64,000 nucleotides of DNA from Candidatus Uhrbacteria bacterium (GCA_026395055.1 JAPLZK010000002.1:56940-120939), one strand, 5' to 3'. Shown: positions 26,820-37,900, counted from the stretch's first letter. A program made the numbers and translations. Notes: a model not told the origin generated them from the letters alone.

Positions 26820-27794
26820 ATGGGCAGTGGTGGTTGGGATCATAGCGCTTCAACGGCGCGTTCACAGACGCGTTCGGCGCGTTCTGTTCAAGAAACGGTG
26901 TTGCAGGATTTTACGCAGACGCGTGAAAGCCGAATCCATCCGGGGATGCATCCGAATGGGCTCGTGTTTCGCGAGTCGCGTGACAGTGTGGAACATCCGA
27001 AGTCTCGTGCAATCATCGGTTCGCTCGACATCACGCAGTCGATGCAGGGGCTTCCGCCGCTGCTCGCGCGTGAGACGTTGCCGCAACTGATGGCAGGCGT
27101 TTTGCCGATTTTGCCGGATGCACAACTGTGCTTCATGGCGTTCGGTGATGCGGATGATGGACACAACTATCAAGGACCGTGGCAGGTTGGTCAGTTCGAG
27201 AGCTCGGATGAGCTTGCGGACGCGTGGCTGACGCGCATCTGGTTGCAAGGGAGTGCTGGTTCGTCTCCGTGCGAATCCGCGGACCTCATCTTGTACACGG
27301 CGGCTCGGCTCACGCGCATCGATTGTCACGAGAAGCGTGGCGAGAAAGGTTATCTGTTCATTCTGACCGATGACACGTGCCGCGACTACGTTTGTGCGGC
27401 AACGGTGAACAAGTGGCTTGGTCGTCAGGAACTCGATGAGAACGTCTCGATCGAGGCGATCATTCAGGAAGCTGCTGAAAAGTACCACATCTTCGTGTTG
27501 ATCCCGGATCAGGCGCGTGCGGTGCAGATGCGTGGCGGCGAGCGCGTCATCGATCACTATCGTCGTCGTATCGGCAACGGGGCGATTGCGCTTGGTGGGT
27601 ACCAGGACACGTCCATCGTTGCGGCCATGCTCATCGGCCTCACCGAAGGCGCGTACAACATGTCGAACGTCGACCATGAGTTGCGCACGCGGTACGGCAA
27701 GTCGGGTGACGAGCTGAATCGGTTGCTCATGATCCTGCGTCCGTACGCGGAATCCCTGCCGAAGACGCCGCTCATCGTGGATCTGCCCGTCTGA
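26820..27794 (+). CDS. vWA-domain protein, paralog 2, with C-terminal TPLIVDLPV tail
   Basis: IGSLDITQSM MIDAS-like motif; start aligned to paralog 1 (MGSGG/MGGG); terminal PLIVDLPV. Confidence 0.5.
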   Translation: MGSGGWDHSASTARSQTRSARSVQETVLQDFTQTRESRIHPGMHPNGLVFRESRDSVEHPKSRAIIGSLDITQSMQGLPPLLARETLPQLMAGVLPILPDAQLCFMAFGDADDGHNYQGPWQVGQFESSDELADAWLTRIWLQGSAGSSPCESADLILYTAARLTRIDCHEKRGEKGYLFILTDDTCRDYVCAATVNKWLGRQELDENVSIEAIIQEAAEKYHIFVLIPDQARAVQMRGGERVIDHYRRRIGNGAIALGGYQDTSIVAAMLIGLTEGAYNMSNVDHELRTRYGKSGDELNRLLMILRPYAESLPKTPLIVDLPV

Positions 27795-27891
27795 GTTCTT
27801 TCTTCTGAGGTTCAACGGGAACCTCCTTTTTTACAAGTGATGATCACAGGGATGATTGCTTCTAGAAAAGTTCTAGCTTCGGAGGAGTCCT

Positions 27892-29277
27892 ATGACTCGA
27901 CATGCTCATCTTGTCGTTGATCTTTCAAACGGGGATGCAGGAAAAGGAACGATCGTGGATGCGCTCGTGCGGAAGTATCGTGCGCATACCGTGATTCGAT
28001 TCAATGGCGGTGCGCAAGCGGCGCATCGTGTTGTGACCGGTGACGGTCGCGAACATATTTTTTCCCAATTCGGTTCAGGAACATTTGTTCCGGGTGTGCG
28101 CACTGTGCTTTCGAAGTACGTGCTCGTTCAGCCGTGGGCGCTTGTTCCGGAAGCGGAGCATCTCGAAGAGCTCGGCATTACGGATGCCTTTGATCGATTG
28201 TTTATTCATGAAGACGCACTCATCATCACACCATTTCATCGAGCGGCAAATCGCTTGCGTGAACGTGCGCGTGCAAAATGGGATGGTCGACATGGGAGTT
28301 GCGGAATCGGCGTTGGCGAGACGGCACATGATGCGCTCACGCTCAAGGAATCGCTCGTGGTTCGCGTGCGTGACTTGCGTGATCTGGGTGCGTTGAAAGA
28401 AAAACTGCAACGCGTGCAAAAACAAAAAGCGTTTCATGTTGATGCGATGATGTTTCAACTGATCGACGATCCAGAAGCCTCCGTAGACATTATCGAACTC
28501 GAAGATCCGGAAGCGGCAACATCTTGGATCAAGCAGCTCGAAGCGGTGCTACCGAAACTGAATATCATTGATGACACATGGTTTGCATCTCTCTTGAACG
28601 AACCAGGTCACATCGTGTTTGAAGGTGCACAAGGTGTGCTCATTGATGAGTCACGCGGATTTCATCCGTACACCACGTGGTCGAATTGTACATTTCAAAA
28701 CGCGCTCGACTTGCTCGCAAACTACGATGGAGAGATTCATAAGATCGGAGTTGTCCGAGCGTATGCGACGCGCCATGGTCCTGGTCCGTTTGTGACGGAA
28801 GATGTTCATCTCACAGAACGTCTGCCGGACGCATGTAATAAAATGGATCCATGGCAGCGTGGATTTCGCGTCGGCCACTTCGATTGCACCTCTACTCGAT
28901 ATGCGATCTCGGCTTGTGACGGCATCGACTCGCTTGCGATTACATGTCTCGACCGCTTGCGCGATGAGCCTGCGTGGAAGATCTGCACATATTATGAACT
29001 TGCTCCAGAAGATGAAGAAAGCACGTTGTTCTATGTTGTGAAGACGTTTCGAGGTTTTCGCCTCTGGATGGACCCTGGACCGTTCCAAGACCTTATATAC
29101 CAAGAGCGACTCACGCACGCACTCGAGCGCGCGAAGCCCGTGCTTCACATTACAACCACGTCAGGAACGTTCGATGAACGCGTCGAACACCATGTCCGCG
29201 AGATTACACAAGAACTCAACGTTCCTGTCTCGATCCTTTCGTTCGGTCCAACAGCAGAAGATAAGAAATTTCTCTAG
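27892..29277 (+). CDS. adenylosuccinate synthetase (PurA) family paralog, divergent
   Basis: NGDAGKGT (cf. GDEGKGK), GGAQAAH (cf. GGHNAGH), FEGAQGVLID, RAYATRHGPGPF; catalytic Asp13/His41 equivalents retained, several substrate residues changed. Confidence 0.7.
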   Translation: MTRHAHLVVDLSNGDAGKGTIVDALVRKYRAHTVIRFNGGAQAAHRVVTGDGREHIFSQFGSGTFVPGVRTVLSKYVLVQPWALVPEAEHLEELGITDAFDRLFIHEDALIITPFHRAANRLRERARAKWDGRHGSCGIGVGETAHDALTLKESLVVRVRDLRDLGALKEKLQRVQKQKAFHVDAMMFQLIDDPEASVDIIELEDPEAATSWIKQLEAVLPKLNIIDDTWFASLLNEPGHIVFEGAQGVLIDESRGFHPYTTWSNCTFQNALDLLANYDGEIHKIGVVRAYATRHGPGPFVTEDVHLTERLPDACNKMDPWQRGFRVGHFDCTSTRYAISACDGIDSLAITCLDRLRDEPAWKICTYYELAPEDEESTLFYVVKTFRGFRLWMDPGPFQDLIYQERLTHALERAKPVLHITTTSGTFDERVEHHVREITQELNVPVSILSFGPTAEDKKFL

Positions 29278-36725: not shown

Positions 36726-36840
36726 GAAGCACCTCTATTGAAAGAAAGAAACTTTCTCACGAACGTTCATCACTCGATGACGATTCGTGTAAAAGGGCGA
36801 TCACGTGATCGCCAAGCGTGCTAGACCGGAAGTTCTCCAA
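36726..36840 (-). repeat. conserved inter-gene element copy 3
   Basis: palindrome at 36796-36813; CACGAACGTTCATC; short upstream mini-ORF MNVREKVSFFQ. Confidence 0.7.
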
Positions 36841-37900
36841 TGAGCGGAATGGGCATACGACCAAGGTTTGGATTTCCAAAGTCGTAGATAGCGGGAGAGA
36901 ATTTCATATAACCCGTATCGTCTTGCGTGTGCGAGTCGCTCGTAATCATGAAGCGACCATTTCCGTACAGGAGAATGGAACGCAGATCCTGAAACCCTTT
37001 GAGGGAGTAGAGGATTTTCATGTCCGGCAGTCGCACAATCCGCAGTTCGTCCTTCCCGTTTTTTCGAATACTCAGGATGAGTGTCTGTGCATCCACAAGA
37101 CAAAATGTGTTGAGATGATCAATGTCTGTGCGTGCGTCATAGAGGTTGTTTGCGATATTCGAATGAATACCAATCTTCCCTCCATCCGATGCAGAAACAA
37201 GGACGTCCTCGGTGAGCCAATCAATTTCTTCGATCGGTCCATTATCTGTTTTGAAAGCGGGGCCGGCCTGTTCCAGTTCGCTTTCAGAAGCAGAGAGGAT
37301 GCACAACTTTGCCCCTATGCTTACAGCAAGTTTGTTGCCATTCGGAGAAAAGGTAAGGAGTCGGATTCCTCCATCGTATTTTTTTCGATGAAGGAGTTTT
37401 GGTCGCGAACCCTTTGTAAGGCGGAAGATCCAGATGTGGTTATTTTGGGCTGCAGCAAGAAAGCCTGATGAAGAAACAGCGACGGTCGTAAACTTATTTG
37501 TCGATGTGCCGCCGTATCCATTGTGTTCAGACGTCGTGTTTTGGACTCGTTTTATTACCCATTCTCCACGACCAGGTTTTTGCCAAAACCATCTGGACTC
37601 TTGCCAAGAAATAACATCTCCGGAAAGGTCTGCAAGAAAAACGGTCTGTCCATGTGTGGACCAAGCGATTCCATCTTTTGCAACAGACGCTGATCGCTCT
37701 TCGTTTTTGTGCAGATCCAATCGTCGCAGAATAGTGCCCGTTGCAACATCCCACATGTGAACTTCTTCATCTTCTCCTGCGCCAATCAGACGTTGTTCGT
37801 CCGGAGAGAGGGCAAGGTGATTGAGAACAGTCGTTCTGCCTTCAAGTCGACGGATCAGTTTTGGTGCGGGGATTTTGATGTCTTCGGTGACGGGTTCCAT
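36821..37900 (-). CDS. WD40/beta-propeller protein (C-terminal ...IPLIGELPV)
   Basis: start MEPVTEDIKIP after AGAGGT SD (longer ORF begins at conserved ATGAGAAAG at 37939). Confidence 0.6.
   Translation of the reverse strand: MEPVTEDIKIPAPKLIRRLEGRTTVLNHLALSPDEQRLIGAGEDEEVHMWDVATGTILRRLDLHKNEERSASVAKDGIAWSTHGQTVFLADLSGDVISWQESRWFWQKPGRGEWVIKRVQNTTSEHNGYGGTSTNKFTTVAVSSSGFLAAAQNNHIWIFRLTKGSRPKLLHRKKYDGGIRLLTFSPNGNKLAVSIGAKLCILSASESELEQAGPAFKTDNGPIEEIDWLTEDVLVSASDGGKIGIHSNIANNLYDARTDIDHLNTFCLVDAQTLILSIRKNGKDELRIVRLPDMKILYSLKGFQDLRSILLYGNGRFMITSDSHTQDDTGYMKFSPAIYDFGNPNLGRMPIPLIGELPV

What the first reader, a model, noticed from the sequence alone, without database searches (positions are those of the whole stretch)
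26820..37900. Shared C-terminal tail TP(L/F)I-x-(D/E)LPV-COOH on five proteins in two loci
All four propeller proteins end ...DFGxxN(L/I)GRxx(T/I)P(L/F)Ix(D/E)LPV-stop: FIRELPV, FITDLPV, LIPDLPV, LIGELPV. The second vWA paralog (26820-27794), which is not homologous to them, ends ...LPKTPLIVDLPV-stop with different codons and without the repeated DNA element downstream. The motif is therefore conserved at protein level, not a by-product of the DNA repeat. The AAA+ protein ends in a related PALIDRNVGEA. An extreme C-terminal hydrophobic-x-hydrophobic tail is the sort of signal read by PDZ proteases or AAA+ N-domains, or used as a sorting or tethering tag. It may couple the vWA/kinase island to the AAA+/propeller locus.
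Basis: seen in the sequence. Interest (0 to 1): 0.7.

Follow-up and report, generated by a model that had tools for sequence, protein, structure and literature searches.

The report
Shared C-terminal docking tail, five proteins
Four fast-diverging WD40 propeller proteins and one unrelated vWA protein of an uncultured Uhrbacteria (CPR) bacterium all end in the same floppy peptide, P-[L/F]-I-x-[D/E]-L-P-V. It is real, selected at protein level and confined to this lineage, and it most likely plugs all five into one partner, probably the neighbouring AAA+ ATPase.

Summary
Five of 501 ORFs of at least 60 aa end in LPV, against 0.12 expected. The eight-residue motif is expected 4e-6 times.

The tail is conserved as protein, not as DNA. 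Seven of 11 invariant residues use more than one codon, and three different stop codons are used. Paralogue bodies are 19-41% identical, but their last 20 residues are 55-75% identical.

AlphaFold2 puts the tail outside both folds: pLDDT is about 32 on a 7-blade propeller and below 50 on a confident vWA/MIDAS fold.

The motif is lineage-specific. Pattern scans of 185,579 genomes, JGI metagenomes and IMG/VR, and a profile search of 1.84 billion proteins, found only orthologues from one sister organism. Those orthologues keep the tail.

The closest vWA2 orthologue (66% identical, same synteny) stops just before the tail. The tail was therefore gained or lost recently on a family whose C-termini are modular.

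Best reading: a constant docking or engagement peptide on variable heads, read by a shared socket. The socket is probably the co-operonic orphan AAA+ unfoldase.

The parts
26820..27794 (+). vWA2: vWA/MIDAS-fold paralogue (324 aa from the conserved MGxG start) that carries the tail.
   Evidence: AF2 pLDDT 92.8, pTM 0.92. Foldseek hits integrin beta-I, MDN1 MIDAS and TFIIH p44 vWA domains. MIDAS residues DxTxS..T..D are conserved.
27765..27794 (+). Tail of vWA2: T-P-L-I-V-D-L-P-V plus stop.
   Evidence: Residues 319-324 have pLDDT below 50, and there is no secondary structure after helix 296-312. The tail is absent from the 66%-identical orthologue P0002.
33518..34534 (-). WD1: WD40 propeller, 338 aa. 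Tail ..NTPFIRELPV is encoded at 33521-33547.
   Evidence: Orthologue P0125 (71% identical) ends APFIRELPV.
34630..35646 (-). WD2: WD40 propeller, 338 aa. Tail ..NTPFITDLPV is encoded at 34633-34659.
   Evidence: Orthologue P0124 (79% identical) ends TPFIRDLPV.
35742..36725 (-). WD3: 7-blade WD40 propeller, 327 aa. Tail ..PTALIPDLPV is encoded at 35745-35771.
   Evidence: Pfam WD40 62 bits. AF2 pTM 0.80, with residues 317-327 below pLDDT 50. Foldseek hits WDR5 and TLE1. Orthologue P0126 ends TALIPELPV.
36821..37900 (-). WD4: WD40 propeller, 359 aa from the likely start at 37900. Tail ..PIPLIGELPV is encoded at 36824-36850.
   Evidence: The intergenic element overlaps the upstream ATG at 37939. 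The L004 orthologue ends IPLITELPV.
38007..40721 (-). Classic-clade AAA+ ATPase, first gene of the operon. It has an orphan region of about 600 residues (N-terminal globular part plus coiled coil) followed by one active AAA module.
   Evidence: PF00004 E 1.6e-26. Best solved relatives are VAT/Cdc48 D2. Walker A GPPGTGKS, pore loop KWVG and Walker B RDEVD can be read in the translation. The N-region has a single homologue, P0184 at 94% identity, and no Pfam hit.
25689..26636 (+). vWA1: tail-less paralogue (46% identical to vWA2) ending ..GVRW.
   Evidence: The orthologue in L001 ends ..GVQW.
34535..34629 (-). 95-nt intergenic element: palindrome GGCGATCACGTGATCGCC, then TTTTACA...GGAGG. Further copies lie at 35647-35741, 36726-36820, about 37916-37997 and about 40724-40811.
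   Evidence: nhmmer E 1e-21 to 1e-31. Sequences are shown.
27815..27889 (+). Weak copy of the same element in the spacer between vWA2 and the PurA-like gene.
   Evidence: nhmmer E 8e-4, 15 bits. It aligns with the orthologous spacer of L001.
33491..33511 (-). Strong intrinsic terminator that closes the AAA-WD4-WD3-WD2-WD1 operon.
   Evidence: 9-bp stem followed by TTTTTT. tRNA-Glu follows at 33329-33403.

Best explanation
The tail, consensus [T/I]-P-[L/F]-I-x-[D/E]-L-P-V-COOH, is a lineage-specific, intrinsically disordered short linear motif. It acts as a common plug.

Four paralogous 7-blade WD40 propellers have diverged almost completely in their bodies and keep the plug. This is the architecture of interchangeable receptor or adaptor (or client) subunits that all dock to one socket.

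The most likely socket is on the classic-clade AAA+ ATPase encoded first in the same operon, which has an intact threading pore loop and a large orphan N-terminal region. On this reading the tail is the address or engagement label by which that motor recognises its propeller partners.

One vWA/MIDAS protein of the nearby kinase-like/vWA/PurA-like cassette acquired the same nine residues. That would wire the cassette, or whatever its MIDAS site holds, to the same socket.

Shown: the motif, its significance, protein-level selection, its disorder, its lineage restriction, and its presence or absence on vWA2 orthologues.

Inferred: that it is a docking peptide, and that the AAA+ is its reader.
For: - Non-random: 5 LPV endings against 0.12 expected, and the 8-mer is expected 4e-6 times.
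- Selected as a peptide. Seven of 11 invariant residues use more than one codon and the stop codons are TGA, TAA, TAA and TAG. In orthologue pairs I count 13 synonymous changes against 4 replacements, and all replacements fall at the x positions (the variable residues preceding the tail and the -5 position) or D/E positions.
- Paralogue bodies are 19-41% identical, but their last 20 residues are 55-75% identical.
- Outside the fold: WD3 residues 317-327 average pLDDT about 32 after the last strand at 305-308. vWA2 residues 319-324 are below 50 after the last helix.
- The tail sits on two unrelated folds.
- The four WD40 genes share one operon and one repeated spacer with the AAA+ gene. The synteny NrdG-like/AAA/WD4/WD3/WD2 is kept in the sister organism.
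- The propellers evolve faster (72-80% identity) than the AAA+ (94%), as expected for variable heads on a constant hub.
- The vWA family has modular, class-specific C-terminal peptides: 27/120 end WWxRLFG-like and 25/120 end in a basic residue plus R[LVIYF] (RRL-like). Tail swapping is therefore natural for this family.
Against: - No multimer modelling was possible, and the AAA+ N-region has no recognisable peptide-binding domain.
- The system is known from only two closely related uncultured organisms, so there is no comparative co-variation.
- The nearest vWA2 orthologue lacks the tail, so the tail is not essential to the vWA cassette.
- The two loci are 6 kb apart and separated by housekeeping-type genes.
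- A nonpolar C-terminus is equally what a degron looks like.
Confidence: 0.5

Rival explanations
1. Degron. The nonpolar disordered C-terminus marks the five proteins for unfolding and degradation, by FtsH, a tail-specific PDZ protease, or the operon's AAA+ feeding a protease. This would keep potentially toxic or conflict-system components short-lived.
For: - The tail is disordered, ends hydrophobic-x-hydrophobic-COOH, and resembles the logic of ssrA-type tags.
- An FtsH gene lies at 49049-50893.
- The operon AAA+ has an intact pore loop KWVG, and such unfoldases engage loose termini.
Against: - The conserved unit is 8-9 residues and includes an invariant acidic position. That is more than most C-degrons need.
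- All four paralogues keep it across deep divergence.
- The operon AAA+ has no protease domain, and no protease gene lies in the locus.
- No tmRNA or Tsp-like gene is in the window.
Confidence: 0.2
2. MIDAS ligand. The acidic residue in a hydrophobic context near a free carboxylate binds the metal site of vWA1 and/or vWA2. The propellers are then brought to the vWA cassette. vWA2's own tail would give self-association or auto-inhibition.
For: - The -4 position is always D or E and switches D to E even between orthologues.
- Both vWA paralogues keep DxTxS..T..D.
- The vWA2 model resembles integrin beta-I and the MDN1 MIDAS domain, which was solved bound to a domain of the WD40 protein NLE1.
- vWA MIDAS sites bind extended, unstructured peptides (PMC7159879).
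- From my own knowledge, fibrinogen gamma ends ..AGDV-COOH and binds an integrin MIDAS.
Against: - The kinase/vWA/PurA-like cassette is widespread without any WD40 or AAA partner.
- The vWA2 orthologue lacks the tail.
- AF2 did not dock the tail in cis, although the model contains no metal.
Confidence: 0.15
3. Propeller ligand. The tail inserts into the top face or pore of a neighbouring WD40 propeller. This would chain the four propellers head-to-tail and recruit vWA2 to them.
For: - The WD3 model is closest to WDR5 and to Groucho/TLE1. These are peptide-reading propellers, and from my own knowledge TLE1 reads the C-terminal WRPW of unrelated transcription factors.
- The tail follows where a blade's outer strand would lie, and it resembles a WD strand-D segment (read from the sequence).
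Against: - The propeller surfaces are poorly conserved between paralogues. Only about 25 invariant columns exist and they are mostly structural, so a common pocket is not evident.
- AF2 left the tail undocked.
Confidence: 0.1
4. By-product. The tail is conserved because the adjacent, nearly identical intergenic repeat homogenises the 3' ends by gene conversion. Alternatively, it is an integral closing strand of the propeller.
For: A 95-nt element of 90-100% identity starts directly after the stop codons of WD2-WD4.
Against: - Tail codons and stop codons differ between copies (20-25/30 nt identity), while the spacer is nearly identical.
- WD1 lacks the element and keeps the tail.
- vWA2 has the tail on an unrelated gene.
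- AF2 gives pLDDT below 50 and no strand for the tail.
Confidence: 0.03

Closest known systems
APC/C co-activators Cdc20/Cdh1: WD40 substrate receptors that dock through a C-terminal IR tail (from my own knowledge).
   Same: A variable WD40 propeller head carries a short, conserved extreme C-terminal peptide that plugs into a shared hub. Several paralogues use the same plug.
   Different: The motif differs (Ile-Arg-COOH against [DE]LPV-COOH). The hub there is a TPR subunit of an E3 ligase, whereas here the hub is unknown and an AAA+ is only suspected. There is no homology beyond the generic WD40 fold.
Groucho/TLE WD40 reading the C-terminal WRPW/WRPY of Hairy/HES and Runx proteins.
   Same: Unrelated protein families share an extreme C-terminal peptide read by one receptor. 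The WD3 model is structurally close to TLE1.
   Different: Here the tail sits on the propellers themselves.
vWA-AAA+ (MoxR) ternary conflict systems with beta-propeller or FtsH components (Kaur et al. 2020, PMC7159879).
   Same: They combine an AAA+ ATPase, a vWA/MIDAS protein, beta-propellers and often kinases. The vWA is predicted to bind an unstructured peptide.
   Different: - The AAA+ here is classic clade (Cdc48/VAT-like), not MoxR.
- The propellers are stand-alone rather than fused to the vWA.
- The vWA sits in a separate cassette with a PurA-like enzyme.
- Coupling, if any, would be through a shared tail, which that paper does not describe.
Rea1/MDN1 MIDAS domain binding the WD40 proteins Ytm1 and Rsa4/NLE1; integrin MIDAS binding fibrinogen gamma ..AGDV-COOH.
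   Same: A vWA/MIDAS domain captures an acidic residue in an exposed peptide of a WD40 protein or at a C-terminus. The PDB entry 8ql1 (MDN1-MIDAS/NLE1-UBL) is among the fold matches of vWA2.
   Different: In Rea1 the ligand is a UBL domain loop, not a C-terminal tail. The similarity here is at fold level only (TM 0.35-0.45), and binding is untested.
C-terminal degrons and adaptor-docking peptides of bacterial AAA+ systems: the ssrA tag ..LAA-COOH, and the SspB C-terminal ClpX-binding peptide (from my own knowledge).
   Same: Short disordered C-terminal peptides recognised by AAA+ machines or their N-domains, with a nonpolar last residue.
   Different: The tail here is genome-encoded on specific paralogues rather than added by tmRNA. 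The sequence differs, and the operon AAA+ has no protease partner in the locus.

Membership tests
WD40 beta-propeller | Pfam WD40 repeat matches above the gathering score. | tested here: met
   PF00400 scores: WD3 62.4, WD1 30.2 and WD4 28.8 bits against a cutoff of 27. WD2 matches only propeller-family models weakly.
WD40 beta-propeller | A closed 7-blade propeller fold. | tested here: met
   AF2 WD3 pTM 0.80, with about 26 strands. Foldseek to WDR5 gives E 7e-14 and TM 0.73-0.78.
vWA / MIDAS domain | Rossmann-like vWA fold. | tested here: met
   AF2 pLDDT 92.8. The top 50 Foldseek hits are dominated by vWA domains (integrin beta-I, alpha-I, MDN1 MIDAS, TFIIH p44/Ssl1, VWF A1), with prob 1.0 and TM 0.35-0.60.
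vWA / MIDAS domain | MIDAS residues DxSxS...T...D. | tested here: met
   D-x-T-x-S, T and D are invariant or nearly invariant in 40 homologues, including both window paralogues.
vWA / MIDAS domain | Match to curated vWA sequence models. | tested here: not met
   No Pfam, NCBIfam, PADLOC or PDB-sequence hit. This is a divergent family.
Classic-clade AAA ATPase (Cdc48/FtsH/PAN type) | PF00004 AAA module with Walker A and B, a pore-loop aromatic-hydrophobic-Gly, and an AAA_lid_3. | tested here: met
   PF00004 E 1.6e-26. The lid scores 24.8 bits, just under its cutoff. VAT/Cdc48 D2 are the best PDB hits, E 3e-61. GPPGTGKS, KWVG and RDEVD are read.
vWA-MoxR ternary conflict system (Kaur et al. 2020) | A MoxR-clade AAA+ encoded next to the vWA protein. 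| tested here: not met
   The only nearby AAA+ is classic clade and lies 10 kb away in another operon. The vWA neighbours are a kinase-like and a PurA-like gene.
Class II PDZ ligand / tail-specific protease substrate | Hydrophobic-x-hydrophobic at the free C-terminus, and a PDZ reader present. | tested here: inconclusive
   L-P-V-COOH fits the pattern. No PDZ or Tsp gene was found among the window ORFs scanned.
ssrA-type tag | Added co-translationally from tmRNA, ending in ..LAA or similar. | tested here: not met
   The tails are encoded in the genes themselves. No tmRNA lies in the window.
Proteasomal HbYX, beta-clamp QL[SD]LF, sortase LPXTG, and APC/C IR or Groucho WRPW motifs | The defining residues: penultimate Tyr; leading Gln and terminal Phe; TG plus a membrane anchor; IR-COOH; WRPW-COOH. 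| tested here: not met
   None of these residues is present in TP[LF]Ix[DE]LPV.

The most novel reading that the evidence does not exclude
A bacterial plug-and-socket wiring system in which a nine-residue peptide was recently added to a vWA/MIDAS signalling protein. The addition rewired a widespread kinase/vWA/PurA-like cassette onto an orphan AAA+/multi-propeller machine. The tail's acidic residue would also serve as a MIDAS ligand, so that propellers, vWA and AAA+ form one Rea1/Rsa4-like remodelling complex. This would be a caught-in-the-act example of new protein-network edges arising by gain of a short linear motif in a CPR bacterium.
Probability: 0.15. Interest if true: 0.7.

Novelty: new variant of a known kind. 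Interest (0 to 1): 0.45.

Why it matters
Short linear motifs that wire proteins together are a hallmark of eukaryotic networks. They are rarely recognised in bacteria outside degrons and secretion signals.

Here one such motif can be read directly from the genome. It is constant on four otherwise unrecognisably diverged propellers, and it is newly present on an unrelated vWA protein whose closest orthologue lacks it.

It would also show how a second system gets plugged in by a nine-residue gain.

The limits are real. The system is known from only two closely related uncultured organisms, and the function of both loci is unknown.

Tried and rejected
- Pattern scans. The back-translated tail pattern found 44 singleton hits in GTDB species genomes, 64 in JGI metagenomes and 0 in IMG/VR. 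None ends a credible ORF, apart from one 173-aa ORF ending ..ITPLINDFPV. There are therefore no further families or genomes. The source MAG itself is not in these collections.
- Profile search. A profile of the last 34 residues run against 1.84 billion representatives returned only the family itself as full-length matches. The other hits were repeats of a 'DFG'-like segment in giant proteins.
- AAA+ N-region. The homologue search found only one 94%-identical orthologue. Pfam on three sub-regions found nothing. Self-comparison with the active AAA module gave only a hint of a degenerate AAA, ITIMPPDEEERLRF against IPILMPDQETRTRL, E 0.25. I did not rely on it.
- Defence-system libraries. PADLOC gave only generic AAA similarity (IetA) and a weak kinase hit, PD-T4-6.
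- Phage origin. The viral collection holds no relative of the AAA+.
- Other vWA cassettes (L005-L008). No tail is shared between neighbouring proteins there.
- Recent DNA transfer of the tail from a WD gene to vWA2. Identity of 18-21/30 nt is no more than shared amino acids would give, so this is rejected.
- Extending the proteome scan beyond the window. One edge protein is not on record. The other edge gave 8.6 kb more sequence with no tails.
- Literature. I found no paper on a DLPV/ELPV C-terminal motif, on this cassette, or on CPR WD40/AAA loci.

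
Full report
**Source and anatomy.** The window comes from a MAG annotated as Candidatus Uhrbacteria (CPR/Patescibacteria), on a 339-kb contig with locus tags NTX72_01330-01375.

On the minus strand lies an operon: AAA+ (38007-40721), then WD4 (36821-37900), WD3 (35742-36725), WD2 (34630-35646) and WD1 (33518-34534). It ends at a strong terminator (33491-33511), followed by tRNA-Glu. The genes are separated by a 95-nt element that holds the perfect palindrome GGCGATCACGTGATCGCC. 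Five copies exist, one of them upstream of the AAA+ gene. These copies show that the AAA+ starts at 40721 and WD4 at 37900.

About 6 kb away on the plus strand lies a second cassette:
- a Zn-ribbon/kinase-like protein (23822-25537);
- vWA1 (25689-26636);
- vWA2 (26820-27794);
- a PurA-like adenylosuccinate-synthetase homologue (27892-29277);
- a 329-aa protein of unknown function.

All four propellers end ..DFGxxN[LI]GRxxx[PA][LF]Ix[DE]LPV, and vWA2 ends ..SLPKTPLIVDLPV. LPV is the commonest ending among 501 stop-to-stop ORFs of at least 60 aa, at 5 observed against 0.12 expected. The 8-mer P[LF]Ix[DE]LPV-COOH is expected 4e-6 times, and internal LPV occurs at the chance rate. The degenerate DNA pattern hits 4 times in the window and 0 times in 100 shuffles.

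**The tail is selected as a peptide.**
- Seven of the 11 invariant residues in the last 21 codons are written with more than one codon. The four stop codons are TGA, TAA, TAA and TAG.
- Between the window and its sister organism I count 13 synonymous changes in the tails against 4 replacements. All four replacements fall at the free 'x' positions (the variable residues preceding the tail and the -5 position) or are D/E swaps.
- Paralogue bodies are 19-41% identical, but their last 20 residues are 55-75% identical.
- WD1 keeps the tail although it is followed by a different sequence, a terminator rather than the repeat.
- The vWA2 tail DNA is only 18-21/30 identical to the WD tails, no more than the shared amino acids impose.

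Gene conversion by the adjacent repeat therefore does not explain the conservation.

**The tail is outside the folds.** AlphaFold2 models WD3 as a 7-blade propeller (pTM 0.80) whose nearest solved folds are WDR5 and Groucho/TLE1. Its last strand ends at residue 308, and residues 317-327 have pLDDT below 50. vWA2 is modelled with high confidence (pLDDT 92.8, pTM 0.92) as a vWA fold. That fold resembles integrin beta-I, MDN1-MIDAS and TFIIH p44 domains and has an intact DxTxS..T..D site. Nothing is structured after helix 296-312, and residues 319-324 are below 50. The tail is thus a flexible C-terminal appendage on two unrelated folds, which is the signature of a short linear motif read in trans.

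**Distribution.**
- A profile of the four propellers finds only three close relatives in 5.8 billion clusters (P0124-P0126). Everything else is generic WD40 with no tail.
- These three relatives, and a fourth gene on contig L004, come from samples SRR22387922 and SRR22387975. They reproduce the gene order and the 95-nt spacers, and all keep the tail.
- A 34-column tail profile searched against 1.84 billion representatives recovers only this family as full-length matches.
- The DNA pattern gives 44, 64 and 0 singleton hits in 185,579 species genomes, JGI metagenomes and IMG/VR. None lies at the end of a credible gene, apart from one 173-aa ORF ending ..ITPLINDFPV.

The motif is therefore an invention of one narrow lineage.

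**The vWA2 tail is a recent gain or loss.** The vWA family is large, with 2,507 hits, and is always linked to the PurA-like gene and a Zn-ribbon/kinase-like gene. This holds in Patescibacteria, Myxococcus and a metagenome contig (L008) that I take to be proteobacterial from its gene content.

The family's C-termini are modular. After the last helix come class-specific peptides: 27/120 end W[WFM]x[RK][LI]F[GSAD], 25/120 end in a basic residue plus R[LVIYF] (RRL-like), 13 end ..R..G, and 4 end ..SW or ..GVxW. Only the window protein ends [DE]LPV.

The closest orthologue, P0002, is 66% identical and sits in the same order vWA1-vWA2-PurA-like-unknown. It stops at ..PYADSLSKN. The DNA alignment shows homology on both sides and a roughly 14-nt indel plus a stop shift exactly where the tail lies. 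vWA1 keeps its own ending, GV[RQ]W, in both lineages.

**Mechanism.** The pattern is a constant plug on variable heads. The propellers evolve several times faster than the AAA+ (72-80% against 94% identity to the sister organism). This is the logic of interchangeable adaptor, receptor or client subunits sharing one socket.

The co-operonic AAA+ is the prime candidate for that socket:
- It is a classic-clade motor (PF00004; best PDB relatives are VAT/Cdc48 D2).
- Its Walker motifs and its KWVG pore loop are intact.
- Its 600-residue N-terminal region is an orphan with a single known homologue.

I therefore favour the tail as the address or engagement label for this AAA+, at about 0.5 for a shared docking peptide in general, with the AAA+ as the leading socket.

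The alternatives that the data leave open are:
- a C-degron, with an FtsH gene nearby;
- a MIDAS ligand, given the invariant acidic residue, the intact MIDAS sites and the structural kinship to peptide-binding MIDAS domains;
- a ligand for the propellers themselves, by the TLE1/WRPW precedent.

AF2 docked neither tail in cis. That is weak evidence against the last two, because the WD40 alignment is shallow and the models contain no metal.

**Comparison with known systems.** Functionally the closest analogues are two eukaryotic cases: APC/C co-activators, which are WD40 receptors docking by a C-terminal IR tail, and Groucho/TLE, which reads a C-terminal WRPW on unrelated proteins. Among bacterial systems the closest are the vWA-AAA+ ternary conflict systems with propellers and FtsH (PMC7159879).

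This locus is not a member of that bacterial class. The AAA+ is not MoxR-clade, it is not adjacent to the vWA, and the propellers are not fused to the vWA.

None of the known C-terminal signals matches, whether HbYX, clamp-binding, LPXTG, ssrA, IR or WRPW. I found no paper that mentions a DLPV or ELPV C-terminal motif.

**Verdict.** This is a real, statistically robust, protein-level C-terminal motif on five proteins of two folds. It is new as a sequence and as a system, but it belongs to a known kind of device, the shared terminal docking or recognition peptide.

Its interpretation is partly supported. Selection at protein level and a receptor-read tail are supported. The remark about the missing downstream DNA element needs correcting.

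Noticed in passing
window 23822-29277; also L001, L005-L008: A conserved, apparently undescribed cassette recurs in Patescibacteria, Myxococcus and a probable proteobacterial metagenome contig. It holds a Zn-ribbon/kinase-like protein, one or two divergent vWA/MIDAS proteins with an invariant N-terminal MGxGxY, and a PurA-like adenylosuccinate-synthetase homologue. The vWA has no Pfam, PADLOC or PDB-sequence match.
   Followed up: partly
P0002-P0120 (homologues of window 26820-27794): The vWA family carries class-specific extreme C-terminal peptides after its last helix. 27/120 end W[WFM]x[RK][LI]F[GSAD], at least 25 end ..RR[LV], 13 end ..R..G, and 4 end ..SW or GVxW (the class of vWA1). This suggests the C-terminus is a general interaction module in the family.
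   Followed up: partly
window 34535-34629, 35647-35741, 36726-36820, ~37916-37997, ~40724-40811; weak copy 27815-27889: A 95-nt intergenic element with the perfect palindrome GGCGATCACGTGATCGCC (CACGTG core), then TTTTACA..GATGAAT..GGAGG, precedes every gene of the AAA/WD40 operon. A diverged version precedes the PurA-like gene and is conserved in L001. It may be a shared promoter, operator or RNA-processing module for both loci.
   Followed up: partly
window 37900-37939 and 40721-40760: The longest-ORF starts of WD4 (37939) and the AAA+ (40760) lie inside the repeated element. The likely true starts are 37900 (MEPVTEDIK) and 40721 (MRWIQEFEK, as in orthologue P0184).
   Followed up: yes
L001 2230-2262 against window 27765-27794: In the tail-less vWA2 orthologue, the frame after the TAG stop reads ILDIVPS.., which faintly resembles LIVDLPV. 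It could be a decayed or nascent tail, or it could be chance.
   Followed up: partly
window 38007-38042: The AAA+ ends ..NPALIDRNVGEA. PALIDRNV aligns with PLIVDLPV at P, D and V, with three further hydrophobic-for-hydrophobic matches, but it is internal and is conserved only in a 94%-identical orthologue. Its significance is unclear.
   Followed up: partly
window 39981-40721: The AAA+ N-terminal 250 residues show faint AAA-like motifs: AFLFTGSVSDG, IAIMPDFD, and ITIMPPDEEERLRF against IPILMPDQETRTRL of the active module (E 0.25). This may be a degenerate D1 domain. It is followed by a long coiled coil with a small beta-rich insert at residues 370-440.
   Followed up: partly
window 33329-33403: tRNA-Glu lies directly after the operon terminator, and the AAA/WD40 operon has lower G+C (0.43-0.48) than its flanks (0.52-0.54). 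This may be an island inserted beside a tRNA gene.
   Followed up: no
window 20898-23614: Two ORFs of 353 and 455 aa with no family match lie in the highest-G+C stretch of the window (0.57), immediately upstream of the kinase-like gene.
   Followed up: no
window 59624-60634: A reverse-transcriptase gene (RVT_1, E 3e-22). It could belong to a DGR, a retron or a group II intron, and its context was not examined.
   Followed up: no
window 46254-50893: A PilB-like T2SSE ATPase (46254-47987) and FtsH (49049-50893) lie 6-10 kb from the operon. FtsH is a candidate reader if the tail is a degron.
   Followed up: no
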